From the sequence record PZ402305.1: 64,000 nt of DNA. One strand, 5' to 3'. The DNA is from a phage. Under the pieces are notes generated by a model that saw nothing but the letters and a program-made list of their open reading frames with translations, was not told the DNA's origin and did not search any database. Positions 48,630 through 59,200 of this stretch are shown here, piece after piece. The position numbers and the translations under genes are program-made. Numbering within the stretch: position 1 is the stretch's first letter; the number at the start of each line of letters is the position of its first letter.

Positions 48630-48737
48630 GGTATCGCCCTTTCTTTGTTGTGCGCCCTGGTTGGCGCGGTAGAAAGATGATAGCCCTTTCCTTTATATAT
48701 AGCAAGCAAAAAGAAAATAAAAAGATTGAAAAAGTGG

Positions 48738-48797
48738 TTGACGTTCGCCAGGTGGCGGCATAATATTTACCACGTAGGGCGGCAATGGTGCCGCTCA
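48738..48797 (+). promoter_or_regulatory. early promoter P1 + 5' stem-loop
   Basis: TTGACG-17-TAATAT-ttac-CACGTAGGGCGGCAATGGTGCCGCTCA; stem GCGGCA/TGCCGC. Confidence 0.7.
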
Positions 48798-48815
48798 CTA
48801 TTTGGAGTTAAGATC

Positions 48816-49013
48816 ATGGCAACATTGCACATTGTGGCGAAAGCTGGACAAATCAACGTAATAGTAAACGGTTTTACTGAGTTCAGTCATCCCCAGGATG
48901 ATCATGAAACGGTTTTATCTTTCATTGATTCACTGTTAGAAATGGGAGTAATTACAGAAGATCAGCATACTGCAAAATGCAAGCGCGTTAAGCAGATTGC
49001 AGGAATAGAATAA
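48816..49013 (+). CDS. early small protein (65 aa)
   Basis: ORF track start 48726 lies upstream of promoter P1; ATG at 48816 follows RBS ggag. Confidence 0.55.
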   Translation: MATLHIVAKAGQINVIVNGFTEFSHPQDDHETVLSFIDSLLEMGVITEDQHTAKCKRVKQIAGIE

Positions 49014-49018
49014 AAGTC

Positions 49019-49076
49019 TTGACAACAAGCCACAACCTGATAAGATGTATCACATAGGGGCGACAAGCGCCCCGCC
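49019..49076 (+). promoter_or_regulatory. early promoter P2 + 5' stem-loop
   Basis: TTGACA-16-TAAGAT-gtat-CACATAGGGGCGACAAGCGCCCCGCC. Confidence 0.7.
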
Positions 49077-49097
49077 TAACAGAAGAGAGAAATCATC

Positions 49098-49370
49098 ATG
49101 GCATCATATAGCGCAACAATGATCGTAACTGGCACCACTGGTAAACCGATGAGCGGTGGCGGATCTTTCGCTAATATCAATATTGACGGGCGTTTATCCC
49201 TGGACGCAGCGATTGCCATTGCACGGGAAACATTTAAGAAAGAATGTAATTTCAACAAGCAAGATTATCTCGGTTTCGCTATTGAAAAAACCGCGCGCTT
49301 TGTTGATTATAAAAGCCCGAAAATGGTTGATACTACACTAAAAGCGCAAGATGTAGCGTTTTTGCTTTAA
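49098..49370 (+). CDS. early small protein (90 aa)
   Basis: RBS agaagagag; follows P2. Confidence 0.6.
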   Translation: MASYSATMIVTGTTGKPMSGGGSFANINIDGRLSLDAAIAIARETFKKECNFNKQDYLGFAIEKTARFVDYKSPKMVDTTLKAQDVAFLL

Positions 49371-49373
49371 GGC

Positions 49374-49429
49374 TTGACATTAACGAATAATTTGTTAATA
49401 TGTTACATAAAGCGGGAATAGTTCCCGCT
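49374..49429 (+). promoter_or_regulatory. early promoter P3 + 5' stem-loop
   Basis: TTGACA-17-TAATAT-gtt-ACATAAAGCGGGAATAGTTCCCGCT. Confidence 0.7.
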
Positions 49430-49446
49430 ATTTGTAAGGTGGTAGA

Positions 49447-49704
49447 ATGTTTTACATCAAATTAAAAGGTCACGTGATCGCGTTCAAAGATAACGCTTTT
49501 TACAGATTAGCAAAATATGCGTTAATACATCCCCACTATGTTTATATAAGGGGGCGTGACGAAATAAATATTTTTGATCAAACAACATGCGAAAACATCG
49601 AGATCCGCAAGGTTGGCGTACGTGATTATCGTACATCTTTCTACCCTTGCAAGGATTCAGCAAGTCTTTTTAAGGTATGTCAATTGTTGAAAAAAGGTGG
49701 TTAA
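49447..49704 (+). CDS. early small protein (85 aa)
   Basis: RBS aaggtgg; follows P3. Confidence 0.6.
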   Translation: MFYIKLKGHVIAFKDNAFYRLAKYALIHPHYVYIRGRDEINIFDQTTCENIEIRKVGVRDYRTSFYPCKDSASLFKVCQLLKKGG

Positions 49705-49705
49705 T

Positions 49706-50263
49706 ATGGGCCGCGAATATGTGATCCAGTCTTGGGTAAAACATGAAGCAGATGATCCGCGCATCATTCCCGATCATCTTATCGATGAATCCACGGGATA
49801 TAGCGGTGAGCAAATAGGTAGCAGATTAGCACGTAGTAACGGCAACGTAAAAGCGCGTTATGTGCGCCCTGGCTGGCTGGCAAATGGTAACGCTGATTTA
49901 TCCAGTGCGGAAGATGCGAGCGACGGCGCGAAAGATAATCCTTTGTACAAAGTTGATCCGGCTTTTCGTGTCCTGGATGAATACCCCAGCAAGATAGCGG
50001 CGCTCGATCAGGCCCTGGAAAGTAAGCGCATCACCTGGACCGCTTACAACATGGCAAAAAACGTACTTGATGGTAAATTGATTCAAGCTGAAAGAAAATT
50101 AGCCAAAATTGCAGCCATAGCCCAGGAGGAAGACGAGGAGACAACGGAAGAGGAAGAGTACGAAGAGATCCCGCCGTTGTTGTGCGTTGATGCTTTTCCT
50201 GATTATCAGCCGACAGAGGAAGAAAAAAGGATCGCACTAGAAAACTTTGAAAATAGTCTTTGA
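49706..50263 (+). CDS. early acidic protein (185 aa)
   Basis: ATG at 49706 after RBS aaaaggtgg (ORF track GTG 49697); C-terminal third strongly acidic (EEDEETTEEEEYEE). Confidence 0.55.
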   Translation: MGREYVIQSWVKHEADDPRIIPDHLIDESTGYSGEQIGSRLARSNGNVKARYVRPGWLANGNADLSSAEDASDGAKDNPLYKVDPAFRVLDEYPSKIAALDQALESKRITWTAYNMAKNVLDGKLIQAERKLAKIAAIAQEEDEETTEEEEYEEIPPLLCVDAFPDYQPTEEEKRIALENFENSL

Positions 50264-50319
50264 CATATCGCCGCCACTGGCATAATATTTACCACGTAGG
50301 GCGGCAATGGTGCCGCTCA
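50259..50319 (+). promoter_or_regulatory. early promoter P4 + 5' stem-loop
   Basis: TTGACA overlapping preceding stop; CATAAT -10; stem-loop identical to P1. Confidence 0.7.
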
Positions 50320-50345
50320 TAGTGAAATTATGCAAGAGGCTTACA

Positions 50346-50441
50346 ATGATTAATAAAGAAAATAGCTTGACGGTTGGAACGATTAACGCTATCATTTTCG
50401 CCGTTCCATTTTGGGTTGTATTAGCGGCTATTATTTTCTAA
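50346..50441 (+). CDS. early hydrophobic micro-protein (31 aa)
   Basis: Not in ORF track (<60 aa); ATG after agagg; MINKENSLTVGTINAIIFAVPFWVVLAAIIF is a single TM helix; sits between P4 and P5. Confidence 0.35.
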   Translation: MINKENSLTVGTINAIIFAVPFWVVLAAIIF

Positions 50442-50451
50442 AAAAATATTC

Positions 50452-50512
50452 TTGACAACGTTTTTTAATCTGATAAGATGTATCACATAGGGCGGCGGAA
50501 TACTTCCCCGCC
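50452..50512 (+). promoter_or_regulatory. early promoter P5 + 5' stem-loop
   Basis: TTGACA-16-TAAGAT-gtat-CACATAGGGCGGCGGAATACTTCCCCGCC. Confidence 0.7.
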
Positions 50513-50533
50513 AAAACAAAAAAGGGTAACACA

Positions 50534-50896
50534 ATGAGCAAGCAAATCAATACTATCATGTTTAATCTGGTATCTTTCCGCGATGATATGAAAAATTTAC
50601 CACGTGAAACGGTTGATATTCATGTTTCAGCTTATCGCGCCCTTATTGATATGTTACCGCTAAAACGTGATCAACATGCCGCTAATATGATGCTTAATGC
50701 TATGCTTAAAAAGATGATTCAAACGGATCTTACTCTGGCGTATGAGTATCAAGGGCGCTTATATGCTACTTACAACAAAGCGGTACCTGGTCTGGGAAGT
50801 ACCGAAGAGTTGCACGGCTTAAACCTGGATCAAAACACTTGGGATAGTATGCGCCGCGTTATGGTATGGGCCGAAAGCGGTAAAATTTACGAATAA
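50534..50896 (+). CDS. early small protein (120 aa)
   Basis: RBS aaaggg; follows P5. Confidence 0.6.
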   Translation: MSKQINTIMFNLVSFRDDMKNLPRETVDIHVSAYRALIDMLPLKRDQHAANMMLNAMLKKMIQTDLTLAYEYQGRLYATYNKAVPGLGSTEELHGLNLDQNTWDSMRRVMVWAESGKIYE

Positions 50897-50902
50897 AAAC
50901 GG

Positions 50903-50959
50903 TTGACACTGTTTAAAATTCTGGTATAGTTTATCACGTAGGGCGGCAATGGTGCCGCC
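50903..50959 (+). promoter_or_regulatory. early promoter P6 + 5' stem-loop
   Basis: TTGACA-17-TATAGT-ttat-CACGTAGGGCGGCAATGGTGCCGCC. Confidence 0.7.
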
Positions 50960-50979
50960 AATAATAAAAGGTTAACATC

Positions 50980-51159
50980 ATGGCTATCATTGCAAAAACT
51001 GAGATTATAGGTTTAGATTCGATCCTCCTGGCTTATGAGGAAACTTTAAAAATGTATGTAGTGACCTATGGTGATTATGTGCGTGAATACGAATACATTG
51101 ATCTTGCTTTCGAATGTTACATTCGCCAGGTCAATAAAGCCTATAACGATTATCGTTAA
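50980..51159 (+). CDS. early small protein (59 aa)
   Basis: Not in ORF track; RBS aaaagg; ATG at 50980 follows P6. Confidence 0.45.
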   Translation: MAIIAKTEIIGLDSILLAYEETLKMYVVTYGDYVREYEYIDLAFECYIRQVNKAYNDYR

Positions 51160-51178
51160 AAGTTTTAGTCTTATACTA

Positions 51179-51230
51179 TTGACAATGAGTGATAGTATAA
51201 GCATAATAACTTTTATCGGGAATACTTCCC
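51179..51230 (+). promoter_or_regulatory. early promoter P7 + 5' stem-loop
   Basis: TTGACA-...-CATAAT-...-CGGGAATACTTCCC. Confidence 0.6.
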
Positions 51231-51256
51231 ACTAACCAAAAAGAGAGAGTGACACC

Positions 51257-51622
51257 ATGGCTATTAATATCAATGTTTCCGTTTATGCTACCCTGGCTGA
51301 CACGGCTAAAATTGAATTATCCAGCATTGAGGCGGTGCATATTAGCGCCCGTCGCTGGTTTCAACAGTCCTACGGTAACACATATTTTTCTTTAATAGTT
51401 GACGTTGAGATCGGCGGTAAACTGATCGAGGTGGTTAACGTTCCGTTTCAATATGGCTATGGTGATCATTTTGATACCGTCGCCCTGGAAGAATTTAGCA
51501 AGGTTATCAACCTTGAGGGCAAGGAATTTTCACGCGGCGCGTATCTTTCCCGTTTTTGCCGTGACAATGGGATCACTGTATACAGTCATGCAAGCGATGT
51601 AAAACGTAAAAAAGATTTATAA
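51257..51622 (+). CDS. early small protein (121 aa)
   Basis: RBS aagagagag; follows P7. Confidence 0.6.
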   Translation: MAININVSVYATLADTAKIELSSIEAVHISARRWFQQSYGNTYFSLIVDVEIGGKLIEVVNVPFQYGYGDHFDTVALEEFSKVINLEGKEFSRGAYLSRFCRDNGITVYSHASDVKRKKDL

Positions 51623-51627
51623 AAGTA

Positions 51628-51690
51628 TTGACAGCACGAATAAAAAGAGTAAACTGTATTACATAGAGAGCGGGAACACTTCCCGCCTCA
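51628..51690 (+). promoter_or_regulatory. early promoter P8 + 5' stem-loop
   Basis: TTGACA-16-TAAACT-gtatt-ACATAGAGAGCGGGAACACTTCCCGCCTCA. Confidence 0.7.
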
Positions 51691-51710
51691 CTGAAAAAGA
51701 GAGAAAAATC

Positions 51711-51950
51711 ATGGCTAAATCTAAAATGTACAACGGTCACAAAAACAAAACTCATTGGAATGTAAGCCTTTGGATTAATAACGATGAATCATTATATCGG
51801 TTGGCGAAAGAATTTATCGCCGCTAATACTAATCGTAATGATGCTGCGCGGGATATGATGCTTTTTCTGGAACAAACTGGACAAGATAAAACGCCAGACG
51901 GTTTCAAATATAGCACTACTGCGATCCGCGCCGCGATGGTTGGAATGTAA
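51711..51950 (+). CDS. early small protein (79 aa)
   Basis: RBS aaagagag; follows P8. Confidence 0.6.
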   Translation: MAKSKMYNGHKNKTHWNVSLWINNDESLYRLAKEFIAANTNRNDAARDMMLFLEQTGQDKTPDGFKYSTTAIRAAMVGM

Positions 51951-51959
51951 TAAAAACAG

Positions 51960-52019
51960 TTGACAACGTTTAAAATTAGTGTAAGATGTATCACATAGGG
52001 CGGGAAGTGGTTTCCCGCC
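51960..52019 (+). promoter_or_regulatory. early promoter P9 + 5' stem-loop
   Basis: TTGACA-16-TAAGAT-gtat-CACATAGGGCGGGAAGTGGTTTCCCGCC. Confidence 0.7.
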
Positions 52020-52041
52020 AACAACAGAGAGATTAAAGATT

Positions 52042-52269
52042 ATGGCTATCAATATTGTTCGCGTATCCGGCACCGTTGGCACTTCCCAGGTTATTGCAGT
52101 TGTAACAAACAAAAAGATTAATGATGTATGTGAGATCTTGAATAAGTGGGCTATTGCTAATTTTGGGGAATATGCAAGCGTCGAGTACATCGAATCCTAC
52201 CAGGTGCCAACCATCAGCCTAACCGATCTCAACGTTGATCGCCTGTTATGCCTGGATGAATTAATCTGA
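52042..52269 (+). CDS. early small protein (75 aa)
   Basis: RBS agagag; follows P9. Confidence 0.6.
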   Translation: MAINIVRVSGTVGTSQVIAVVTNKKINDVCEILNKWAIANFGEYASVEYIESYQVPTISLTDLNVDRLLCLDELI

Positions 52270-52278
52270 AAAAGATTG

Positions 52279-52337
52279 TTGACACGGGAAAGAAAAAGAG
52301 TAAACTATATTACGTAGGGCGGCAATGGTGCCGCTCA
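52279..52337 (+). promoter_or_regulatory. early promoter P10 + 5' stem-loop
   Basis: TTGACA-16-TAAACT-atat-TACGTAGGGCGGCAATGGTGCCGCTCA. Confidence 0.7.
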
Positions 52338-52359
52338 CAACAGAAGAGAGATTATCACG

Positions 52360-52572
52360 ATGGCTAATATCCGCACACTGTTAAAAAATGCAAAACAAGT
52401 TTTATTTTCTGATCACAATCATTTTAATAAAGATATTACAGGCGTGAAGAATATCAAAGATGTAAAAAGTGTTATGGGTATATATTGCAATGTTAAACGT
52501 GTTGGAACGTTCGGTGACAAGGTATTGTATCAATCAGGTGATTACAATTTTACTTTGACGATTATTTCATAA
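52360..52572 (+). CDS. early small protein (70 aa)
   Basis: RBS agaagagag; follows P10. Confidence 0.6.
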   Translation: MANIRTLLKNAKQVLFSDHNHFNKDITGVKNIKDVKSVMGIYCNVKRVGTFGDKVLYQSGDYNFTLTIIS

Positions 52573-52577
52573 AACGC

Positions 52578-52638
52578 TTGCAATACTGCAAAAATAAAGT
52601 AAACTGTATTACATCAAGGCGGGGAATGGTCCACCGCC
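52578..52638 (+). promoter_or_regulatory. early promoter P11 + 5' stem-loop
   Basis: TTGCAA-...-TAAACT-gtatt-ACATCAAGGCGGGGAATGGTCCACCGCC. Confidence 0.65.
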
Positions 52639-52662
52639 TAACAAAGAGAAGAGGAAAACATC

Positions 52663-52830
52663 ATGATTACTTTTACTACCCGTGAAGCCGCTCGCAACGT
52701 TGCACGTAAAGTTAACGCCGCCAACCTGGGTGCTACGCTTAAAGCCCCTGTAAAAGATGAATCAGGCAAATGGATCTTCCCTGGTCTGCGTCATGCTGAC
52801 AAGTTAGGTACTTTAAGCCTTAAAAAATAA
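52663..52830 (+). CDS. early small basic protein (55 aa)
   Basis: Not in ORF track; RBS agaggaaaa; follows P11. Confidence 0.45.
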   Translation: MITFTTREAARNVARKVNAANLGATLKAPVKDESGKWIFPGLRHADKLGTLSLKK

Positions 52831-52833
52831 TCG

Positions 52834-52871
52834 TTGACTTTTCGTTATAGCGCCTTATAATGGGCGCTATA
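52834..52871 (+). promoter_or_regulatory. early promoter P12 with -10 embedded in palindrome
   Basis: TTGACT then TATAGCGCC-TTATAAT-GGGCGCTATA perfect inverted repeat enclosing the TATAAT hexamer. Confidence 0.55.
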
Positions 52872-52908
52872 GAGAAGAGAAACCAATCACCAGAAAGAGA
52901 GAAAGAAA

Positions 52909-53127
52909 ATGGCAATCCGTAAAATTAAAGTTGTTTGCATTGAATCAACTGGTGGCGCGTTTGTAGTTGGTCAGAAGTATAATGCGGTTTTAATGGGCGT
53001 GGATTGGAAGGTTAAAGGTCTTGACGGTTACGAATACGGCACTACTCGCGGCTTGCGTGGTCGAATCGGATACGTGAGCTTTGACAACAAAGAAAAATTT
53101 GTTTTCGATACTGTTATGAGTAAATAG
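52909..53127 (+). CDS. early small protein (72 aa)
   Basis: RBS agagagaaag; follows P12. Confidence 0.6.
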   Translation: MAIRKIKVVCIESTGGAFVVGQKYNAVLMGVDWKVKGLDGYEYGTTRGLRGRIGYVSFDNKEKFVFDTVMSK

Positions 53128-53200
53128 CACGAATTGCTAAAAACTAATCTGCGAATTGCTGTAATATCAACTAATCGAAACACATAAAGAGAAAAACATC

Positions 53201-53422
53201 ATGATCACTTTCGCTATTGTCACCGTTGTCGCTGGTCAAGTTTACGTAAATGAGACATTTACTACAGAAGACAAAGCAGCAGGAGATATAACCGCCGTTT
53301 ACAACGAGTGCAAGGCAGTAGAAAGGATGTTAGCGCCTTGTATGCTAATGAGTGAACGCCAGGACGGGATAACAGTGTTTAGCAACATTGAAACAGGGTA
53401 CCAAATGGTAGTAACAAAATAA
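53201..53422 (+). CDS. early small protein (73 aa)
   Basis: RBS aaagagaaa; upstream promoter less clear (TTGCTA / TGTAATAT), no stem-loop. Confidence 0.55.
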   Translation: MITFAIVTVVAGQVYVNETFTTEDKAAGDITAVYNECKAVERMLAPCMLMSERQDGITVFSNIETGYQMVVTK

Positions 53423-53425
53423 AAC

Positions 53426-53483
53426 TTGACACAGATTTAATTTTCAGTAAACTGTTACACATAGGGCGGGAATAGTTCCCGCT
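53426..53483 (+). promoter_or_regulatory. early promoter P13 + 5' stem-loop
   Basis: TTGACA-...-TAAACT-gtta-CACATAGGGCGGGAATAGTTCCCGCT. Confidence 0.7.
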
Positions 53484-53500
53484 AAAAAGAGAGAAAGACC

Positions 53501-53854
53501 ATGAAAGCACAAAATGCAATTAAAGAGTACATCCTTGCCGCTATCGATTTTAATGATTATGGTATTACAACCGAAAAAGAGAAGATCGCGGAATTGATGC
53601 GCCGTTTTAATTCCGAGTACTGGTACCCTGATAATCAATCACGTTTTAATTATAGTATTGTTAAAGCACTTGCATCATGGTTACAAGGTTTGCCATCAGA
53701 CATTAATATCGCTTTCGAATATTGGGAAATTGATCGTTTGTTAACATCCTGGGGATACATTAAAGAGAATAGCAGCGATGATAAAATCCAACGAGAAAGG
53801 GAAAATTATTGGCTTTATATTGCAGGCGTGATCCTTGCTTGCTCTTATGAATGA
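53501..53854 (+). CDS. early small protein (117 aa)
   Basis: RBS aagagagaaag; follows P13. Confidence 0.6.
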   Translation: MKAQNAIKEYILAAIDFNDYGITTEKEKIAELMRRFNSEYWYPDNQSRFNYSIVKALASWLQGLPSDINIAFEYWEIDRLLTSWGYIKENSSDDKIQRERENYWLYIAGVILACSYE

Positions 53855-54080: not shown

Positions 54081-54086
54081 CATAAC

Positions 54087-54321: not shown

Positions 54322-54327
54322 AAGTGG

Positions 54328-54388
54328 TTGACACCATAACCGGACCTGTTAAACTGTATTACATCAGGCGGGGGAATAGTTCCCCACC
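54328..54388 (+). promoter_or_regulatory. early promoter P15 + 5' stem-loop
   Basis: TTGACA-...-TAAACT-gtatt-ACATCAGGCGGGGGAATAGTTCCCCACC. Confidence 0.65.
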
Positions 54389-54407
54389 ATACAAAAAGGT
54401 AAATATT

Positions 54408-54614
54408 ATGATCACCGCAAAACAAGAAAAAATCATTATCGACGTTGCAGCCGTTGCCGCTATTGCTATTATTGGATCTTATTATGATACCCGTTTCCCG
54501 TCGGCTATGCATGAGGTCGCCGCCGTTGCATCAGTTGGCGTACTGTTTTACGTTGGTAAACGCTATTTATCACCAATGATTAACAAGCTGACACCGTGGA
54601 AAAATAAAGGTTGA
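54408..54614 (+). CDS. early small membrane protein (68 aa)
   Basis: ORF track start 54324 is upstream of promoter; ATG at 54408 after aaaaagg; hydrophobic helix VAAVAAIAIIGSYY. Confidence 0.5.
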   Translation: MITAKQEKIIIDVAAVAAIAIIGSYYDTRFPSAMHEVAAVASVGVLFYVGKRYLSPMINKLTPWKNKG

Positions 54615-54668
54615 TCCTGTTTTATATTGTGTTATAGTTATCGTGTAGGGCGGCAATGGTGCCGCGCC
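54611..54668 (+). promoter_or_regulatory. early promoter P16 + 5' stem-loop
   Basis: TTGATC-...-TATAGT-tatc-GTGTAGGGCGGCAATGGTGCCGCGCC. Confidence 0.6.
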
Positions 54669-54685
54669 CCTTTGAGGATGCAATC

Positions 54686-54970
54686 ATGAGTAAAGCTAAC
54701 ACCGTGCTAATGTTTTCCCTGATTAATGATCCCGCTTACTTGTCCAACATGACGCAGGAGGGTAACACATTAACGGCAACATTCACCAATAAGCTTGACC
54801 GAGTGATCATCATCTCACTGAAAACAGTTAGTAAAGGCTTTTACTCGTTAGCTTATCATTGGATCACTGATACCGATGAGACAAGCCAGGACTATAGCGC
54901 CCCTTTCCCTGAATCAATGGCACGGGAGATCATCGCCGCCGTTGTAAATGATGGTTTGTTTACTGCATAA
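54686..54970 (+). CDS. early small protein (94 aa)
   Basis: ORF track start 54656 overlaps stem-loop; ATG at 54686 after gaggatg. Confidence 0.5.
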   Translation: MSKANTVLMFSLINDPAYLSNMTQEGNTLTATFTNKLDRVIIISLKTVSKGFYSLAYHWITDTDETSQDYSAPFPESMAREIIAAVVNDGLFTA

Positions 54971-54985
54971 AAATTTAGAAAAGGC

Positions 54986-55042
54986 TTGCAATAATTTTGA
55001 GATAGTGTATATTTAATTCATAGGGCGGCGGGAATAGTTCCC
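54986..55042 (+). promoter_or_regulatory. early promoter P17 + 5' stem-loop
   Basis: TTGCAA-...-TATATT-taat-TCATAGGGCGGCGGGAATAGTTCCC. Confidence 0.6.
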
Positions 55043-55065
55043 AAAGCAAACGAGAGGATTACACG

Positions 55066-55185
55066 ATGAGCAAGTACACAGTAGAATACACGGTAGAGAA
55101 TCCGGCAGTATCCGAAGGTAAAAAGATGACATTTGCCATCAGTATAATCGCTTTCGTTGTCACTATCTTATCAATCATCTTATAA
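55066..55185 (+). CDS. early hydrophobic micro-protein (39 aa)
   Basis: Not in ORF track; RBS gagagg; C-terminal TM helix FAISIIAFVVTILSIIL. Confidence 0.35.
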   Translation: MSKYTVEYTVENPAVSEGKKMTFAISIIAFVVTILSIIL

Positions 55186-55195
55186 GGTGCACACC

Positions 55196-55357
55196 ATGAA
55201 AATAACAGACATTATCAAAGAGATCGCCCTTGCCGCTGGCGTTGAAGTCGAGGAAGTGATCGCGCTCAATCTTACAGAAAACGATCTGCGCAACTATGAA
55301 GCGGAAAGCGTGAAAGCAAGCGGCGCGGTCCTGGTATATGATCCGGCTAACAAGTAA
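55196..55357 (+). CDS. early small protein (53 aa)
   Basis: ORF track start 55157; ATG at 55196 after taaggtg. Confidence 0.45.
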   Translation: MKITDIIKEIALAAGVEVEEVIALNLTENDLRNYEAESVKASGAVLVYDPANK

Positions 55358-55366
55358 GGGGATAAC

Positions 55367-55477
55367 ATGAATCCGAAAGATATGCAAGCATGGAAAGGGT
55401 ACGACGATCTAAGCGCCTTGCGCAATAAGTCAAGCCGTAACCTTAGACGGTTGGAAGCAAAGAAAAAGAAAAAATAG
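55367..55477 (+). CDS. early small basic protein (36 aa)
   Basis: Not in ORF track; RBS aagggga; ends in KKKKK. Confidence 0.3.
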   Translation: MNPKDMQAWKGYDDLSALRNKSSRNLRRLEAKKKKK

Positions 55478-55478
55478 T

Positions 55479-55537
55479 TTGACAAGTCCGCGTAGTCTGA
55501 TAATATGTATCTTGTAGGGCGGCAATGGTGCCGCTCA
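55479..55537 (+). promoter_or_regulatory. early promoter P18 + 5' stem-loop
   Basis: TTGACA-17-TAATAT-gtat-CTTGTAGGGCGGCAATGGTGCCGCTCA. Confidence 0.7.
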
Positions 55538-55555
55538 CAAGAAGAGAGAAAAATC

Positions 55556-55840
55556 ATGAAAATTACAAAAAGCCTAACTAATTATGCAGCACGTCGCGGA
55601 TTATGTTTAACCGTTGAAAACTTAGGGAAAGAAGACTTTTTGTGTTTTTGGGAGCTTGAAAATGATTGCGAGTGGATGTTTTCTTATTCTATCTGCGAAG
55701 ATCAAAACGGTTGTTTGTTAACCTGGCGCGGTAATATCTATTTACCGGAAGAAATCAAAGAGGAACTACCAGGCACGATCATGACTGAGAAACAGCTTAA
55801 GGAAGTGATCAATTTTGTAGGGCAAAACATTAAAAAATAA
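55556..55840 (+). CDS. early small protein (94 aa)
   Basis: ORF track start 55505 is inside promoter; ATG at 55556 after agaagagagaaaa. Confidence 0.55.
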   Translation: MKITKSLTNYAARRGLCLTVENLGKEDFLCFWELENDCEWMFSYSICEDQNGCLLTWRGNIYLPEEIKEELPGTIMTEKQLKEVINFVGQNIKK

Positions 55841-55841
55841 T

Positions 55842-55907
55842 TTGACAGTAGGCAAACAACGTAGTAAAGTTTATTACATAGAGCGGCGGAATGGTCCACC
55901 GCTCACA
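55842..55907 (+). promoter_or_regulatory. early promoter P19 + 5' stem-loop
   Basis: TTGACA-...-TAAAGT-ttatt-ACATAGAGCGGCGGAATGGTCCACCGCTCA. Confidence 0.65.
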
Positions 55908-55925
55908 ACAGAAGAGAAACAAATC

Positions 55926-56096
55926 ATGATCCCGACTATGTTTTATGTATCGCGCAAAGGTCACAATATTTTTTGGTCTGAAGATTTAAATGAAGCTATG
56001 ACGTTTGCCCGTAATCGTGTTGCTATCGGTGGCGTTAACATCACCGTAACCGATGAAAATGGCATTGAATACTATAACGGCGACGATGAAGAATAA
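55926..56096 (+). CDS. early small protein (56 aa)
   Basis: ORF track start 55842 overlaps promoter; ATG at 55926 after agaagagaaac. Confidence 0.5.
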   Translation: MIPTMFYVSRKGHNIFWSEDLNEAMTFARNRVAIGGVNITVTDENGIEYYNGDDEE

Positions 56097-56101
56097 TTAA
56101 T

Positions 56102-56128
56102 GAGGCGGGGGGAGTATTCCCCGCCGTC
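56102..56128 (+). promoter_or_regulatory. promoter-less GC stem-loop (terminator/processing-site candidate)
   Basis: GAGGCGGGGGGAGTATTCCCCGCCGTC hairpin of the same type as the 5' stem-loops but without upstream TTGACA. Confidence 0.4.
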
Positions 56129-56174
56129 AATATGGCGGGGCAATAAGGCAACGCCCATTAATGAGGGTAAAATC

Positions 56175-56279
56175 ATGTTAGAGAAAATTTTCACGGTTGC
56201 AGTGGTTGGCCTGGCGTTATCGGTTGGAGTGGTTGCAACTATGGCTAACATGATCCTATCTTCCCACGGTATCGGTTAA
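56175..56279 (+). CDS. early hydrophobic micro-protein (34 aa)
   Basis: Not in ORF track; RBS gagggtaaa; MLEKIFTVAVVGLALSVGVVATMANMIL is a TM helix. Confidence 0.35.
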   Translation: MLEKIFTVAVVGLALSVGVVATMANMILSSHGIG

Positions 56280-56289
56280 GGTGAAACAA

Positions 56290-56505
56290 ATGATCACGAA
56301 CAAAACAGGCAAAACGGAATTTTTACGCGGCTTACAAGTTGGTAAGCCTGAGATCTGGCATTGCACGAAGTCCGCGCATAATGAAATGAAAGATTTCACC
56401 GCTACTTTACAACGTGTTAAAATATCTATTACACAGAAAAAAGCCTTGTTAGTAGTAGAAAACGAGATCCCACAAACTATTATTATTGTCGAGCGTACAG
56501 CATGA
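56290..56505 (+). CDS. early small protein (71 aa)
   Basis: ATG at 56290 after taaggtg (ORF track GTG 56281). Confidence 0.5.
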   Translation: MITNKTGKTEFLRGLQVGKPEIWHCTKSAHNEMKDFTATLQRVKISITQKKALLVVENEIPQTIIIVERTA

Positions 56506-56888
56506 AAACAGAAATCATTATTGAAATCATCAACGGCTATAAAGAAGCTTTTATTTTTGCTGAATCAGCAAGGGATCATGAAGGTAATTTTATTGATAAC
56601 TTAGACGATTATGATTTTTCTCCTAGCGCGGACGAACGGATCGCCCAGGATGTAACAGCCTTTATTAATGCTAATCTTGCCGCTATCTCTGAGGCAATGA
56701 GCGACGGCGCAACAGCCAACCAGATCGGGAATGATTTACATTTTACCCGTAACAGTCACGGCGTAGGCTTTTGGGATCGCCCTGAAATATACACCACTAA
56801 CACGGCGAACCGCCTAACCAATGCAGCTAAGTTTATGCCGAACGTGTCGGCTTACATTGGTGAAGATAATTTGATTTATATTGAATAA
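56502..56888 (+). CDS. early protein (128 aa)
   Basis: 4-nt overlap with upstream gene. Confidence 0.55.
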   Translation: MKTEIIIEIINGYKEAFIFAESARDHEGNFIDNLDDYDFSPSADERIAQDVTAFINANLAAISEAMSDGATANQIGNDLHFTRNSHGVGFWDRPEIYTTNTANRLTNAAKFMPNVSAYIGEDNLIYIE

Positions 56889-56894
56889 AAAGTA

Positions 56895-56953
56895 TTGACA
56901 CAGATCGCCAGTGTGCTAATATTTACCACGTAGGGCGGCAATGGTGCCGCTCC
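56895..56953 (+). promoter_or_regulatory. early promoter P20 + 5' stem-loop
   Basis: TTGACA-17-TAATAT-ttac-CACGTAGGGCGGCAATGGTGCCGCTCC. Confidence 0.7.
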
Positions 56954-56971
56954 CCGAAAAAGGTAAACATT

Positions 56972-57163
56972 ATGGAAACCATCTCCTACCTGGAATCGAA
57001 TAACATGTTTTTTGCGCCCGTTGATGAAATCATCGAAGCATTAAACAACGAGGAAGGGATCAAAGGTTTATCTTATAGCCAACTTTTAGGAATGGTTGCA
57101 GCAAATGAAGAGCTTGCTTACTATGTTGAAAATTTTGATGAAGCTGTAATCTTTACAAAATAA
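56972..57163 (+). CDS. early small acidic protein (63 aa)
   Basis: RBS aaaaagg; follows P20. Confidence 0.55.
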   Translation: METISYLESNNMFFAPVDEIIEALNNEEGIKGLSYSQLLGMVAANEELAYYVENFDEAVIFTK

Positions 57164-57166
57164 TCC

Positions 57167-57223
57167 TTGATCTAATCTCTTAGATAACTTATATTTAATG
57201 CGTAGGGCGGCAATGGTGCCGCC
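57167..57223 (+). promoter_or_regulatory. early promoter P21 + 5' stem-loop
   Basis: TTGATC-...-TATATT-taa-TGCGTAGGGCGGCAATGGTGCCGCC. Confidence 0.6.
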
Positions 57224-57241
57224 GATAATGAGGAAAGTAAA

Positions 57242-57541
57242 ATGGAAACTATCGCTATTGTTACCGTAGAAAAACTGGTTGTTGGTGATGTATTCGCGTT
57301 AATGGTGCCTAACAGCAGCAAACTGGGCGCTTATGAAGTAATGGATCATAAAAATGAATCATTTGGCGACGGTTGCACAATGGCGGTAAAATCTTTAAAG
57401 GATGGAATCATCCGCCAGGCTAACTGGCACAAAGGGAATCAAGTCGGTTTAATATCAGCTAATTTCTTGCCAGAAGAGCAAACGTTAGACCAACTATCAG
57501 GCGGTAAGACGTTAGCCGAGCTACTGGAAACAGCGATCTAA
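57242..57541 (+). CDS. early small protein (99 aa)
   Basis: RBS gaggaaag; follows P21. Confidence 0.6.
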   Translation: METIAIVTVEKLVVGDVFALMVPNSSKLGAYEVMDHKNESFGDGCTMAVKSLKDGIIRQANWHKGNQVGLISANFLPEEQTLDQLSGGKTLAELLETAI

Positions 57542-57549
57542 TCAACAAA

Positions 57550-57565
57550 GGGGCGGCAACGCCCC
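57550..57565 (+). promoter_or_regulatory. promoter-less GC stem-loop
   Basis: GGGGCGgcaaCGCCCC perfect hairpin between genes, no T-run. Confidence 0.4.
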
Positions 57566-57585
57566 ACATCAGAAAGGAAAAGATT

Positions 57586-57822
57586 ATGAGTATTGCAACA
57601 GTATTAAACGCCGTTAAAACCGCTGAATCATCCGGCTTGCATGTTGAGCTTATAGATCAACCAGGTGGCGATCTCCTTGTCCAGGTTTACCCGCCGAAAG
57701 TAGGGGATGATCATTATTGGTGCTATTCTGATACGTTCGAACAAGTAGACACGAAAGCGATCACGGCTTTTATTTTAAAAGCTATTGAAGAAAATAACTT
57801 TCATTATAACATCAATCAATAA
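57586..57822 (+). CDS. early small protein (78 aa)
   Basis: RBS aaaggaaaag. Confidence 0.55.
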   Translation: MSIATVLNAVKTAESSGLHVELIDQPGGDLLVQVYPPKVGDDHYWCYSDTFEQVDTKAITAFILKAIEENNFHYNINQ

Positions 57823-57879
57823 ACTTTAAGCAGGGGGCGGTAACGCCCTATTAAACGCAATAGGAAGAGGATAGAAAGC

Positions 57880-58170
57880 ATGAAAAAGATGATCGCAGTA
57901 GTTGCCCTGGTTGTTGGTATTAACGCGCCTGTAATGGCTAATGATTTGCCTGAATCCATCGCGTTAACCGATATCAACGCGGTAAACCGGATCGGCGTTA
58001 ATTATCGCCTATGCCTTGCCGCTAAAACTTTCCAGGACGGCACGACAGAATACCACGGATTCGAGGGTGTCCGGTGCGGTGAGCTTGCACGCGACCTTAA
58101 GGAAGATCCAGACCTTGAGGCCATACCGATGACCGTAAACGGTAAAGCTTACGTAAACCGCCAACAATGA
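57880..58170 (+). CDS. early secreted small protein (96 aa)
   Basis: Signal peptide MKKMIAVVALVVGINAPVMA; RBS aggaagagg. Confidence 0.55.
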   Translation: MKKMIAVVALVVGINAPVMANDLPESIALTDINAVNRIGVNYRLCLAAKTFQDGTTEYHGFEGVRCGELARDLKEDPDLEAIPMTVNGKAYVNRQQ

Positions 58171-58181
58171 GAAAGGTAATC

Positions 58182-58409
58182 ATGACAATGGGGATCATAG
58201 TAGCAACGCTGGCGCTGATCCCCTTCCTGGTTGAATATGTGCTGATTAGTGTTGTCCTGGTAGTCAGTGACTTATTGGAAACGGTTGGCACCTGGGAGCA
58301 GGGGAAGATAATCACCGGACGACCCCGCTATATATTGATAGCTAACATCTATCAAACAACAAAACATCAAAGAGATAAACTATCAAATCTTTACAATCCT
58401 ACCTATTGA
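58182..58409 (+). CDS. early small membrane protein (75 aa)
   Basis: ATG at 58182 after gagaaagg (ORF track 58167); two hydrophobic helices. Confidence 0.45.
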   Translation: MTMGIIVATLALIPFLVEYVLISVVLVVSDLLETVGTWEQGKIITGRPRYILIANIYQTTKHQRDKLSNLYNPTY

Positions 58410-58464
58410 CACCGGATCACGCTTACATTATCATTTATCACGTAGGGCGGGAATGTTTCCCGCC
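58406..58464 (+). promoter_or_regulatory. early promoter P22 + 5' stem-loop
   Basis: TTGACA-...-CATTAT-...-CACGTAGGGCGGGAATGTTTCCCGCC. Confidence 0.65.
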
Positions 58465-58482
58465 TGATTTAGGAGTCATATC

Positions 58483-58716
58483 ATGATCGAACAAATTAAA
58501 AGCACTAAACCAAATGTTAACGGTAATGTTTCTCACTTTATCGGGGATAATGAAAGAGGTACACCGTACGCCGCCGTAACCGTTCAACCGAACGGGGATT
58601 ATTGGTTTACCGTGTACGGATCTTACTCTTTTGGACGTTCGGCACATGATAAGATCTTGCAAGTGGTTAAGCCTACTGGGAAGAATATCACAGCAGAAAA
58701 ATTTTATAAAAAATAA
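58483..58716 (+). CDS. early small protein (77 aa)
   Basis: RBS taggag; follows P22. Confidence 0.6.
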   Translation: MIEQIKSTKPNVNGNVSHFIGDNERGTPYAAVTVQPNGDYWFTVYGSYSFGRSAHDKILQVVKPTGKNITAEKFYKK

Positions 58717-58727
58717 CTTGCTTTATA

Positions 58728-58777
58728 GCTCCTGTTAACTTATAGTTATTGCGTAGGGCGAGCAATACAGCAAGCCC
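58728..58777 (+). promoter_or_regulatory. early promoter P23 + variant 5' stem-loop
   Basis: TTGCTT-...-TATAGT-tatt-GCGTAGGGCGAGCAATACAGCAAGCCC. Confidence 0.5.
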
Positions 58778-58794
58778 ACAAAGAGGAAAAGAAG

Positions 58795-59163
58795 ATGAGC
58801 AAATCAGCAATTAAAGCACTTGAAAAAGCACAAGAAGTGATCGCAACGTCAACCACTGGCGCAAAGGTTAATCTCGTTGGTTATCTGACAGATGAAACTA
58901 TCCGTAAAAATTGGCGTAATGCTGATTTACTGGCTTGCTTATTGATTAATAGTGTCGCTAATGCTTTCCAGTGTGAAACAGCCGAGAGCCTGGAGGAAAA
59001 CTTGTTTGATAATATGGATCAAGCCATTGAAACCTATATACAATCAAACATGGATAGCTGGAACAGTAAAACATGGCCCGACAATTTACGCGATACAACT
59101 GATCAACTGATCCGCCTTGCCTTGATGGTTGAACGCGATAACGTTCACAACCGCACAAAGTAA
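58795..59163 (+). CDS. early protein (122 aa)
   Basis: RBS aagaggaaaag; last gene of block. Confidence 0.6.
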   Translation: MSKSAIKALEKAQEVIATSTTGAKVNLVGYLTDETIRKNWRNADLLACLLINSVANAFQCETAESLEENLFDNMDQAIETYIQSNMDSWNSKTWPDNLRDTTDQLIRLALMVERDNVHNRTK

Positions 59164-59171
59164 GATTATAC

Positions 59172-59200
59172 AAGGGGCGCACCAAGCGCCCTTTCTTTTT
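59172..59200 (+). terminator. rho-independent terminator (copy 2)
   Basis: aaGGGGCGCaccaaGCGCCCtttcttttt; same core as 54087-54114. Confidence 0.8.

What the first reader, a model, noticed from the sequence alone, without database searches (positions are those of the whole stretch)
48700..59200. Early block differs in base composition and codon usage from the rest of the window
By eye the early genes use more GC-rich, E. coli-like codons (GCC, CGC, CTG, CCG) and their leaders are GC-rich, while structural and replication genes are AT-rich with A/T-ending codons. This suggests either selection for efficient translation early in infection or mosaic acquisition of the block.
Basis: seen in the sequence. 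Interest (0 to 1): 0.4.

Follow-up and report, generated by a model that had tools for sequence, protein, structure and literature searches.

The report
Phage early-gene cassette array, CpG-rich
A 10-kb run of about 34 tiny, individually promoted early genes in a phAPEC8-type E. coli phage really does differ in base and codon make-up from the rest of the genome. It sits in a sharply bounded CpG/GpC-rich island of shuffled, horizontally exchanged gene cassettes; its codons are not tuned for fast translation.

Summary
The window is a Phapecoctavirus genome, about 98% identical to phage tuntematon. Positions 48816-59163 hold 34 small ORFan genes. Twenty-one have their own near-consensus sigma-70 promoter, and 18 of those leaders also carry a GC-rich hairpin.

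Overall GC is only 2 points higher (41.3 vs 39.3%), but GC3 is 0.415 against 0.29-0.35 (p=6e-10). The shift is not general GC pressure, nor a move to E. coli optimal codons. CTG, NAC and TTC are unchanged, and CAI rises only from 0.38 to 0.41.

It is a dinucleotide shift. CpG rho* is 1.29 against 0.72 and GpC 1.36 against 1.00, in all three codon phases and in the flanking non-coding gaps. The island runs from about 47.6 to 60.4 kb and is unique in the roughly 150-kb genome.

Homologous arrays in three other genera carry the same signature, whatever the backbone GC (37-51%). Cassettes recombine: one gene indel has its junction inside the shared hairpin. Array genes are much more similar between genera than backbone genes, and some occur in unrelated phage families.

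Best reading: a PeSL-like, horizontally exchanged immediate-early cassette array. The ultimate cause of its signature is unresolved.

The parts
47558..48720 (.). Left non-coding flank of the island. It holds an AT-rich stretch (25-32% GC) with 72-nt and 29-nt direct repeats, three 19-bp Fur-box-like palindromic repeats 29 bp apart (48027, 48056, 48085), and then a 50% GC stretch.
   Evidence: (CpG+GpC) observed/expected rises above 1.1 from about 47600.
48363..48629 (-). An 88-aa ORF on the opposite strand inside the left flank (GC 0.50, GC3 0.52). A strong minus-strand promoter-like site lies just downstream of it at 48360-48332.
   Evidence: Annotated as a CDS in tuntematon and Mt1B1_P17. 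97.7% amino-acid identity in Justusliebigvirus PATM.
48738..59163 (+). Array of 34 small genes (31-185 aa), from the first promoter to the last stop codon. Twenty-one have a sigma-70 promoter matching at least 9 of 12 positions in the 70-97 bp spacer upstream (16 with an exact TTGACA). Six are operonic.
   Evidence: Gene calls match the tuntematon annotation. Promoters. Of 30 proteins scanned, 28 match PHROGs, all but one family of unknown function. Of the 10 longest scanned against Pfam, one matched, DUF7249.
49019..49097 (+). Representative cassette: TTGACA, 16 nt, TAAGAT, then hairpin GGGGCGacaagCGCCCC starting 11 nt after the -10, then a purine-rich Shine-Dalgarno (AGAGAG), then ATG.
   Evidence: dG -12.7 kcal/mol, z -2.6.
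54087..54115 (+). Intrinsic terminator AAGGGCGCACCAAGCGCCCTT followed by a T-run. It splits the array into two halves.
56889..57241 (+). Insertion/deletion module: cassette, then gene 56972-57163 (63 aa, no PHROG match), then cassette. Five close relatives lack the gene. Tuntematon has one chimeric cassette there, with the junction inside the shared hairpin GTAGGGCGGCAATGGTGCCGC.
59172..59200 (+). Intrinsic terminator, nearly the same sequence as at 54087. It closes the array.
59201..60813 (.). Right non-coding flank of the island. It is 1.6 kb with no ORF of 60 aa or more, a strongly A+C-rich top strand, and three more copies of the 19-bp Fur-box-like repeat (59407, 60275, 60454). (CpG+GpC) observed/expected stays at 1.1-1.6 until about 60400.
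   Evidence: Equivalent gaps follow the arrays of APCEc02 and PATM. rV5 has a described non-coding region (PMC3606486).

Best explanation
The block is the immediate-early gene array of a phAPEC8-type myovirus.

Shown: about 34 tiny ORFan genes lie here. Most have their own near-consensus sigma-70 promoter, a GC-rich hairpin starting 11-12 nt after the -10 hexamer, a purine-rich ribosome-binding site and an ATG. Two intrinsic terminators divide and close the array.

Inferred: unmodified host RNA polymerase fires all the promoters on entry. The hairpin lies about 4-5 nt from the inferred transcript 5' end. It stabilises the short mRNAs and/or attenuates read-through.

Shown: the compositional difference is a dinucleotide signature. 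CpG and GpC are at or above host level in a 12.8-kb island (array plus both non-coding flanks), while the rest of the roughly 150-kb genome is CpG-poor. This produces the excess of NGC, NCS and ATC codons and the 9-10 point rise in GC3. The leader hairpins add GC to the spacers.

Shown: the repeated promoter-hairpin cassettes are recombination sites, so genes are gained, lost and swapped one cassette at a time. Array genes also move between genera and even families.

Inferred: the array is therefore a separately evolving, horizontally exchanged gene pool that is not equilibrated to the backbone's sequence regime. A lower need for phage-tRNA codons is a secondary feature, or a by-product.
For: Identity.

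Cassette anatomy. In 17 of 20 leaders the fold z-score is -1.9 or lower, with the hairpin at a fixed place despite at least five different stem sequences.

Signature:
- CpG rho* 1.29 vs 0.72, GpC 1.36 vs 1.00, Karlin delta* between block and rest 159.
- Raised in codon phases 1-2, 2-3 and 3|1.
- Sliding CpG rho* is 0.53-0.81 from 1 to 46.5 kb and 1.13-1.26 from 48 to 58.5 kb.
- The island includes both gaps, and 24 of 34 genes exceed the backbone's 95th percentile for CpG.
- Unique genome-wide.

Same signature in other arrays: Justusliebigvirus (CpG 1.20 vs 0.63-0.69), Vequintavirus (1.01 vs 0.64) and Certrevirus (1.13-1.24 vs 0.78-1.01). The array-to-backbone 4-mer enrichment profiles correlate at r=0.57-0.85.

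Shuffling and exchange:
- Hairpin-junction indel.
- Gene-by-gene mosaic identity, while the adjacent backbone (32.3-47.5 kb) is about 100% identical to P3322.
- The block matches 292 phage records but only 14 cover at least 80% of it, and 211 match at 80-90% identity, including other genera and jumbo phages. A control region matches 76 records, 62 of them near full length.
- Against Justusliebigvirus, median amino-acid identity is 83% for array genes and 57% for backbone genes; nucleotide identity is 88% vs 74%.
- Gene 51711 is 88-94% identical in 350-kb jumbo coliphages and occurs near the start of several roughly 40-kb phage genomes.

Non-equilibrium: per-site S>W and W>S rates are the same in both compartments. 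The block shows 45 CpG losses and 24 gains, the backbone 35 and 50 (Fisher p=0.004).
Against: Array GC tracks each phage's own backbone GC, only 0.3-2.3 points above it over a 37-51% range. Yet the CpG/GpC/GATC/CCWGG signature stays constant. A passive shared pool would not obviously give that, so an array-specific constraint may be acting.

The adjacent small-gene region 60814-64000 is also variable among relatives but has the backbone signature.

No source genome with this signature was identified, and there is no DNA match in E. coli genomes.

Early timing, promoter activity and hairpin function are inferred from sequence only.

The singleton analysis uses six genomes and ignores recombination.
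Confidence: 0.55

Rival explanations
1. An array-specific functional constraint acts at the DNA or RNA level. On this view the early island must keep a host-like, CpG/GpC-rich and Dam/Dcm-site-rich sequence because it is handled by unmodified host machinery: RNA polymerase, nucleoid proteins, methylation-dependent factors such as SeqA, or Fur at the flanking operators. Selection, not gene flow, maintains the signature.
For: The signature is conserved in four genera whose backbones range from 37 to 51% GC, while array GC itself follows each backbone.

It covers the non-coding flanks as well.

GATC observed over Markov-expected is 1.29-1.64 in arrays and 0.84-1.04 in flanks. CCWGG is 1.2-1.8 vs 0.55-0.93. 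AGAAC/GTTCT occurs 23 times against 120 expected from backbone rates, and never in this block.

The excess of CpG losses among recent singletons is what purifying selection against such losses would also give.
Against: No mechanism is identified.

There is no excess mRNA structure in the coding sequences (synonymous-shuffle z -0.21 vs -0.31).

The PeSL-rich early region of T4-like RB49 shows no island (CpG 1.11 vs 1.12). Host-polymerase early arrays therefore do not need a special composition. The contrast arises because this phage group's backbone is CpG-poor.
Confidence: 0.25
2. Translational selection: early genes are tuned to the host tRNA pool because they are translated before the phage's ten tRNAs accumulate.
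For: The phage tRNAs include Arg-TCT, Gly-TCC, Pro-TGG, Thr-TGT and Gln-TTG. Their cognate codons make up 25% of those five amino-acid families in the block and 35% elsewhere (p=1e-5). AGA+AGG+CGA are 0.14 vs 0.32-0.41 of Arg codons.

CAI is slightly higher (0.413 vs 0.384, p=0.02).

Early-versus-late codon differences are known in about half of the phages studied (PMC5683454).
Against: Most of the shift is between codons read by the same tRNA: CGT to CGC, GGT to GGC, AGT to AGC, TGT to TGC, ATT to ATC. It goes away from the E. coli optimal CGT, GGT and GCT. There is no gain in CTG, NAC or CAG, and TTC falls.

CpG and GpC are also raised at codon junctions (0.68 to 1.16) and in untranslated flanks.

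Other small-gene clusters that look early (41284-47557, 60814-63938) lack the shift.
Confidence: 0.12
3. A region-specific mutational or repair bias, such as GC-biased repair of recombination heteroduplexes, or escape from methylation-driven C-to-T decay that depletes CpG and GpC in the backbone.
For: The backbone has the matching surplus of decay products: CA/TG rho* 1.17 vs 1.05 and AC/GT 0.99 vs 0.86.

The phage encodes several DNA methyltransferases, one annotated Dcm.

The array is a recombination hot spot.
Against: Recent singleton changes show the same per-site S>W (0.074 vs 0.076) and W>S (0.043 vs 0.048) rates at third positions in block and backbone. The per-CpG loss rate is also the same, about 0.10. 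No current difference in bias is visible.
Confidence: 0.08

Closest known systems
PeSL cassettes (promoter-early stem-loop) in hyperplastic regions of T4-like phages (Arbiol et al. 2010, PMC2839356; Comeau et al. 2014, PMC4122927)
   Same: Each intergenic module runs stop codon, sigma-70-like promoter, stem-loop, Shine-Dalgarno, ATG. The modules are repeated in front of small ORFans. Gene insertions and deletions between close relatives have their junctions in the cassette (here inside the hairpin).
   Different: This is a different phage family (Stephanstirmvirinae). The hairpin sits consistently downstream of the -10, in the transcribed leader, and lacks a U-tract, so it is more likely a 5' mRNA element than a terminator. 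The array forms a compositional island, whereas the RB49 PeSL region does not. Mini-circles and promoter and terminator activity were not tested here.
Sigma-70 promoter clusters in the 'likely early gene region' of Vequintavirinae (rV5, PMC3606486; Certrevirus CB7/CR3, PMC7344957)
   Same: The genome architecture is the same: a run of short hypothetical genes, each with an E. coli-type promoter, next to a long non-coding stretch. The arrays are homologous and share some genes and cassette sequence.
   Different: In the passages searched, those papers list promoters and terminators. They describe no leader hairpin, no cassette-mediated shuffling and no distinct composition for the region.
Temporal codon-usage differences between early and late phage genes (Mioduser et al. 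2017, PMC5683454; also Cowe & Sharp 1991 on T4, from my own recollection)
   Same: There is a statistically strong difference in synonymous codon usage between an early class and the rest of the genome.
   Different: Here the difference is a CpG/GpC dinucleotide signature. It also covers codon junctions and non-coding DNA, is confined to one of several small-gene clusters, and brings little gain in host codon adaptation.
Horizontally acquired genomic islands and 'morons', with amelioration (from my own recollection)
   Same: The composition is atypical, the boundaries are sharp, individual genes carry their own promoters, similarity to foreign genomes is higher than for flanking genes, and there are signs of decay towards the resident composition.
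   Different: The island as a whole is not an insertion. It is present at the same place in every relative and in four genera, and no integrase or transposase was seen. Turnover is by cassette, inside a fixed scaffold.

Membership tests
Phapecoctavirus (Stephanstirmvirinae) genome | Near-full-length nucleotide identity to classified members | tested here: met
   Window 30000-52000 is covered 100% at 98.1% identity by tuntematon, and 46 records cover at least 80% of it. The block is 97% covered at 97.1% identity.
PeSL-type regulatory cassette array | Composite intergenic module (stop, sigma-70-like -35/-10, stem-loop, Shine-Dalgarno, ATG), repeated in front of small ORFans | tested here: met
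   Twenty-one of 34 genes have a promoter matching at least 9 of 12 positions in the spacer. Eighteen hairpins have dG of -8 kcal/mol or lower. Seventeen of 20 leaders have z of -1.9 or lower. Of 30 proteins scanned, 28 match PHROGs, all but one family of unknown function.
PeSL-type regulatory cassette array | Gene indels or replacements between close relatives, with junctions in the cassettes | tested here: met
   Gene 56972-57163 plus one cassette is absent in tuntematon, which has a chimeric cassette joined inside the 21-nt shared hairpin. Identity to five relatives varies gene by gene.
PeSL-type regulatory cassette array | The stem-loop works as a transcription terminator or attenuator, and the promoter is active and strong | not testable with these tools
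   From sequence only: the hairpins lie after the -10 and lack a T-run. Only two elements (54087, 59172) look like intrinsic terminators.
PeSL-type regulatory cassette array | Occurs in T4-like phages (as originally defined) | tested here: not met
   The taxonomy of the closest records is Stephanstirmvirinae. Hence 'PeSL-like', not a member in the narrow sense.
Early genes under translational selection for host tRNAs | Higher codon adaptation to host highly expressed genes, and a shift towards host optimal codons | tested here: not met
   CAI is 0.413 vs 0.384, against 0.46 for ordinary E. coli genes. CTG and NAC are unchanged and TTC is lower. CGT and GGT are replaced by CGC and GGC.
Early genes under translational selection for host tRNAs | Reduced use of codons that depend on phage-encoded tRNAs | tested here: met
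   25% vs 35% (odds ratio 0.64, p=1e-5).
Early genes under translational selection for host tRNAs | The signal is confined to translated positions | tested here: not met
   CpG at the 3|1 junction is 1.16 vs 0.68. The non-coding flanks share the CpG+GpC excess.
Horizontally acquired genomic island | Atypical composition with sharp boundaries | tested here: met
Horizontally acquired genomic island | Presence/absence of the whole island among relatives, and mobility genes at its ends | tested here: not met
   The array is present and syntenic in all five close relatives and in Justusliebigvirus, Vequintavirus and Certrevirus. No integrase or transposase appears among the proteins scanned.
Known RNA family for the leader hairpin | Match to an Rfam covariance model | tested here: not met
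   The only hit is one sub-threshold chance match (E=0.46).

The most novel reading that the evidence does not exclude
The early array and its flanks would be a selection-maintained 'CpG island' of a phage genome: a segment that must keep host-level CpG and GpC, an excess of Dam (GATC) and Dcm (CCWGG) sites, and freedom from AGAAC. It would be bracketed by Fur-box-like operators. On this reading methylation state and/or host DNA-binding proteins time the switching on and off of immediate-early transcription. The feature would be conserved across Stephanstirmvirinae and Vequintavirinae irrespective of genome GC.
Probability: 0.15. Interest if true: 0.7.

Novelty: new variant of a known kind. 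Interest (0 to 1): 0.45.

Why it matters
Several things follow if the reading holds.
- PeSL-type modular shuffling of early ORFans is not confined to T4-like phages.
- A single dinucleotide statistic (CpG rho*) delimits the host-takeover gene set in a large group of therapeutic coliphages: phAPEC8-, phi92-, rV5- and CR3-like.
- The early genes of these phages form a gene pool shared between genera and even families. That bears on where anti-defence and host-takeover functions arise and spread.
- It poses a concrete open question: why is the backbone CpG-poor while the early island is not? Methylome mapping, recoding experiments and population genetics can answer it.

Tried and rejected
- **Gene-length artefact.** Rejected: the comparison with small backbone genes only still gives p=8e-8.
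- **A few GC-rich morons driving the mean.** Rejected: 33 of 34 genes are shifted.
- **General GC pressure.** Rejected: NAY, GTY and CTY are unchanged and TTC is lower. In 51%-GC PBES02 the array keeps the signature without a higher GC3.
- **Recent capture from the host chromosome or prophages.** No megablast match in 5,426 E. coli genomes.
- **Selection for mRNA secondary structure in coding regions.** Synonymous-shuffle z is -0.21 in the block and -0.31 in the backbone, and MFE per nt is equal (one search timed out).
- **A general property of sigma-70 cassette arrays.** The RB49 PeSL region shows no island.
- **Ongoing GC-biased conversion.** Per-site W>S and S>W rates are equal.
- **Palindrome or restriction-site avoidance as the cause of backbone CpG poverty.** Non-palindromic CpG words are depleted about as much as GCGC and CGCG.
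- **Tetranucleotide z-score similarity to E. coli.** The block (r=0.39) is no closer than random backbone samples (0.45 +/- 0.06). The host likeness holds only for dinucleotides and within-codon context.
- **CTAG depletion as a shared array feature.** It is strong in this block (2 observed, 16 expected) but not consistent across the other arrays.
- **Known RNA family for the leader.** None.
- **Literature.** Searches for transcriptomics of these phages, or for earlier reports of the composition island, found nothing relevant.

Full report
**What the window is.** The block (48700-59200) and its surroundings match Escherichia phage tuntematon and about 75 other Phapecoctavirus genomes at 95-98% identity. 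Annotation of the matching stretch in tuntematon shows about 35 short hypothetical genes on one strand, separated by 75-95 bp spacers. My own gene calls give 34 genes of 31-185 aa between 48816 and 59163 and agree with that annotation. The window holds no tRNA gene. The near-identical tuntematon genome carries ten elsewhere: two Met-CAT, Ile-GAT, Pro-TGG, Gln-TTG, Gly-TCC, Thr-TGT, Asn-GTT, Ser-GCT and Arg-TCT.

**Checking the observation.** Raw GC is 41.3% in the block and 39.3% elsewhere, a small difference. The third-codon-position difference is large. Pooled GC3 is 0.415, against 0.290, 0.314, 0.353 and 0.345 in the four other gene groups (Mann-Whitney p=5.7e-10; 7.7e-8 against backbone genes of 190 aa or less). 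GC2 is unchanged and GC1 is slightly lower.

The shift is pervasive. Thirty-three of 34 genes lie above the backbone median. No contiguous backbone run of the same coding length exceeds GC3 0.354. The remaining 90 kb of the tuntematon genome, including another 12-kb cluster of small genes, has GC3 of 0.29-0.33. The spacers are also richer in GC (41.6% vs 37.2% for other intergenic DNA). That is entirely due to a leader hairpin of 64% GC; promoter and remaining leader are 31-32%.

**What kind of codon shift it is.** Heterogeneity between block and rest is overwhelming (summed chi2 396, 41 df), but it is confined to particular contexts.
- NGC codons rise: CGC 0.42 vs 0.11, GGC 0.31 vs 0.11, AGC 0.27 vs 0.11, TGC 0.67 vs 0.24.
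- NCS codons rise: GCC, GCG, CCG (0.36 vs 0.11), CCC, ACC, ACG.
- ATC rises (0.49 vs 0.26).
- AGA, CGA, GGA and CCA fall.
- Asp, Asn, His, Tyr, Gln, Lys, Glu and Val codons show no change.

RSCU correlates with 42 ordinary E. coli K-12 genes at r=0.57 (rest 0.18). It correlates with 30 ribosomal and elongation-factor genes at r=0.51 (rest 0.37). CAI against the highly expressed set rises only from 0.384 to 0.413 (p=0.02). Ordinary E. coli genes score 0.46 and the reference set 0.68. The codons are therefore more E. coli-like, but not in the way translational optimisation would make them.

**It is a dinucleotide signature.** In coding DNA the strand-symmetric odds ratio for CpG is 1.29 in the block and 0.72 in the rest (E. 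coli sample 1.15). For GpC it is 1.36 vs 1.00 (E. coli 1.22). AG/CT, GA/TC, AC/GT and CA/TG are lower. Karlin's delta* is 159 between block and rest, but only 13-90 among backbone parts, and 79 between block and E. coli.

CpG is raised in all three codon phases (1.74, 1.09, 1.16 against 1.22, 0.51, 0.68), including the junction between codons. GpC behaves likewise. The block values are close to those of E. coli genes. Within-codon (2-3) dinucleotide preferences correlate with E. coli at 0.79, against 0.45 for the backbone.

A sliding profile shows CpG rho* of 0.53-0.81 from 1 to 46.5 kb, 1.13-1.26 from 48 to 58.5 kb, and 0.89 after 60 kb. At finer scale the island runs from about 47600 to about 60400, so it includes both ORF-poor flanks. 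Because junctions and untranslated DNA share the signal, tRNA-based selection cannot be the main cause.

**Anatomy of the array.** Twenty-one of the 34 genes have a promoter matching at least 9 of 12 consensus positions in the spacer upstream. Sixteen of these have an exact TTGACA, and spacing is 16-17 bp. Six genes follow their neighbour within 11 bp. The rest have weaker promoters or only a hairpin.

A stable hairpin starts 11-12 nt after the -10 hexamer, about 4-5 nt into the inferred transcript. Eighteen have dG of -8 kcal/mol or lower. Seventeen of 20 leaders fold better than dinucleotide shuffles at z of -1.9 or lower. At least five different stem sequences occupy the same position (GGCGGC/GCCGCC, GCGGGAA/TTCCCGC, GGGGCG/CGCCCC and others), so the structure itself is conserved, not just one sequence. 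The hairpins lack a T-run.

Two nearly identical intrinsic terminators lie at 54087-54115 and 59172-59200. No Rfam family matches. Of 30 proteins scanned, 28 fall in PHROGs, all but one family of unknown function. The exception, 55066-55185, is a membrane protein in the moron/host-takeover category. Among the ten longest scanned against Pfam, only DUF7249 matched.

From my own knowledge of the work of Belasco and colleagues, a stem-loop within a few nucleotides of the 5' end protects E. coli mRNAs from 5'-end-dependent decay. That is the function I consider most likely here. It is inferred, not shown.

**Shuffling and exchange.** Gene 56972-57163 is missing from all five close relatives examined. 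In tuntematon the two flanking cassettes are replaced by one chimeric cassette. Its left part equals the window's left cassette and its right part the right cassette, and the junction lies inside the shared 21-nt hairpin. PeSL-mediated excision or insertion predicts exactly this (PMC2839356).

Identity to the five relatives changes from gene to gene. For example, 54408-54614 is 100% identical to P3322 but 90% to tuntematon, while 51257-51622 is 99% to Ro121c4YLVW but 89% to tuntematon. Meanwhile the adjacent backbone (32.3-47.5 kb) is uniformly about 100% identical to P3322.

In the phage database the block matches 292 records. Only 14 cover at least 80% of it, and 211 match at 80-90% identity, among them Justusliebigvirus, Vequintavirus and 350-kb jumbo coliphages. 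An equally long control region (20000-30500) matches 76 records, 62 of them essentially full-length and all Phapecoctavirus-like.

Against Justusliebigvirus PATM, 21 of 34 array genes have syntenic homologues at a median 83% amino-acid and 88% nucleotide identity. For neighbouring backbone genes the figures are 57% and 74% (p=0.024). Gene 51711-51950 is 88-94% identical at protein level in jumbo phages. It also occurs near the start of several roughly 40-kb phage genomes of Vibrio, Ralstonia, Aeromonas and Roseobacter hosts. There is no DNA match in E. coli genomes.

**The signature is a property of the array in the whole phage group.**
- Vequintavirus APCEc02: array CpG 1.01, GpC 1.19, NGY C-fraction 0.57; flanks 0.64, 0.91, about 0.36.
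- Justusliebigvirus PATM: array CpG 1.20, GpC 1.40; flanks 0.63-0.69 and about 1.0.
- Certrevirus PBES 02 (51% GC): array CpG 1.13-1.24, GpC 1.10-1.23; backbone 0.78-1.01 and 0.73-0.96. Here GC3 is not higher (0.57 vs 0.59-0.61).

The array-to-backbone log enrichment of tetranucleotides correlates at 0.57-0.85 among the four phages. In all four arrays GATC and CCWGG exceed their Markov expectation (1.29-1.64 and 1.2-1.8; flanks 0.84-1.04 and 0.55-0.93). AGAAC/GTTCT is the most depleted pentamer: 23 observed against 120 expected from backbone rates, and none in this block.

Array GC follows each backbone's GC to within 0.3-2.3 points.

The PeSL-rich early region of T4-like RB49 shows no island (CpG 1.11 vs 1.12), because that whole genome is at host level. 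The odd compartment is thus the CpG-poor backbone of the rV5/phAPEC8 group, and the early island escapes whatever makes it so.

**Is the block at equilibrium?** I took singleton differences among six genomes as recent changes. Third-position rates are the same in block and backbone (S>W 0.074 vs 0.076; W>S 0.043 vs 0.048). Both imply an equilibrium GC3 of about 0.37-0.39. The block shows 76 S>W and 64 W>S changes, the backbone 104 and 134 (Fisher p=0.055). CpG losses and gains are 45 and 24 in the block, 35 and 50 in the backbone (Fisher p=0.004). The per-CpG loss rate is about 0.10 in both.

So no different mutational bias acts on the block now. It sits above the common equilibrium. That fits either sequence imported from elsewhere and decaying, or purifying selection that later removes CpG losses. 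This data set cannot separate the two.

**Verdict on mechanisms.** I rank first the reading that the block is a PeSL-like immediate-early cassette array. Its genes form a horizontally exchanged pool that is not equilibrated to the backbone (0.55). It is the only reading directly backed by several independent observations.

The conservation of the signature across backbones of very different GC, and its extension to non-coding flanks, keep an array-specific DNA-level constraint alive (0.25).

Translational selection explains at most the lower use of AGA, GGA, CCA and ACA (0.12).

A region-specific mutation or repair bias is not visible in recent changes (0.08).

**Known and new.** Promoter clusters in the 'likely early region' are described for rV5 and Certrevirus (PMC3606486, PMC7344957). 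PeSL shuffling is described for T4-like phages (PMC2839356, PMC4122927). Early-versus-late codon differences are described for many phages (PMC5683454). I found no report of a bounded CpG/GpC island, of leader hairpins, or of hairpin-junction gene indels in Stephanstirmvirinae or Vequintavirinae. The library searched is limited to open-access papers and preprints. I therefore rate the finding a new variant of a known kind, of moderate interest.

Noticed in passing
window 48027-48103, 59407-59425, 60275-60293, 60454-60472: A 19-bp near-palindromic repeat, AATGATAATCATTCTCATT, occurs at six sites. All lie in the two non-coding gaps that bracket the array (0.1 expected by chance). Three are in tandem at 29-bp spacing. 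One matches the E. coli Fur-box consensus with 3 mismatches. They may be operators or iterons for a host or phage DNA-binding protein.
   Followed up: partly
window 47740-47990: An extremely AT-rich stretch (25-28% GC) holds 72-nt direct repeats 138 bp apart and three 29-nt repeats, just upstream of the Fur-box-like repeats. The layout resembles an origin or another protein-loading region. Tuntematon annotates repeat_region features at locus 5326-5404, which corresponds to about 48024-48102, over the adjacent Fur-box-like repeats and not over this AT-rich stretch.
   Followed up: partly
window 48092-48360 (minus strand): A near-consensus minus-strand promoter (TTGACA, 17 nt, TATACT; 48360-48332) lies directly after the stop codon of the minus-strand ORF 48363-48629. 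It points into a 50% GC, ORF-free stretch that ends at a hairpin formed by the Fur-box-like palindrome. The 234-nt stretch folds with z=-2.1. It could be a non-coding RNA.
   Followed up: partly
window 59201-60813: A 1.6-kb stretch has no ORF of 60 aa or more and a very strong strand asymmetry (GC skew -0.41 and AT skew +0.45 at 59350-59800, so the top strand is A+C-rich). Equivalent gaps follow the arrays of APCEc02 and PATM, and rV5 has a described non-coding region (PMC3606486).
   Followed up: no
window 48720-59200 and arrays in L006, L011, L012: AGAAC/GTTCT is absent from the whole 10.5-kb block (7.6 expected by Markov model, about 31 from the backbone rate). It is 3-6 fold depleted in the arrays of three other genera. 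Lys-Asn, Glu-Asn and Gln-Asn dipeptides are never encoded as NAG-AAC in the block (0 of 29, against 23 of 136 in the backbone). Related GAAG and GAAC words are also depleted.
   Followed up: partly
window 48720-59200 and arrays in L006, L011, L012: Dam sites (GATC, 7.3-10.3 per kb) and Dcm sites (CCWGG) exceed their Markov expectation in all four arrays but not in the flanks. In this block most of the extra GATC is a G-ending codon followed by ATC.
   Followed up: partly
window 32295-47557 compared with 48816-59163: The backbone left of the array is essentially 100% identical to phage vB_EcoM-P3322 gene after gene, whereas the array genes are 84-100% identical to it. The window genome is therefore a recent recombinant with a breakpoint near the left gap.
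   Followed up: partly
window 54087-54115 and 59172-59200: Two almost identical intrinsic terminators (GGGCGCACCAAGCGCCC followed by a T-run) lie in the middle and at the end of the array. The array may be built of two similarly terminated halves.
   Followed up: no
database records: Several records named Campylobacter phage (for example B15, C3), Acinetobacter phage vB_AbaM_ABPW7, Pseudomonas phage PsgM04F and Klebsiella phage ZCKP1 are 95-100% identical to E. coli Phapecoctavirus or Justusliebigvirus DNA. The host labels in those records deserve caution.
   Followed up: no
L012 33053-38075 (Cronobacter phage PBES 02) and L013 17348-23307 (RB49): [quoted passage not shown] This is the same design as RB49 PeSLs (TTGACAggggatcggtgatcccctATAAT). 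In the window the hairpin is downstream of the -10.
   Followed up: no
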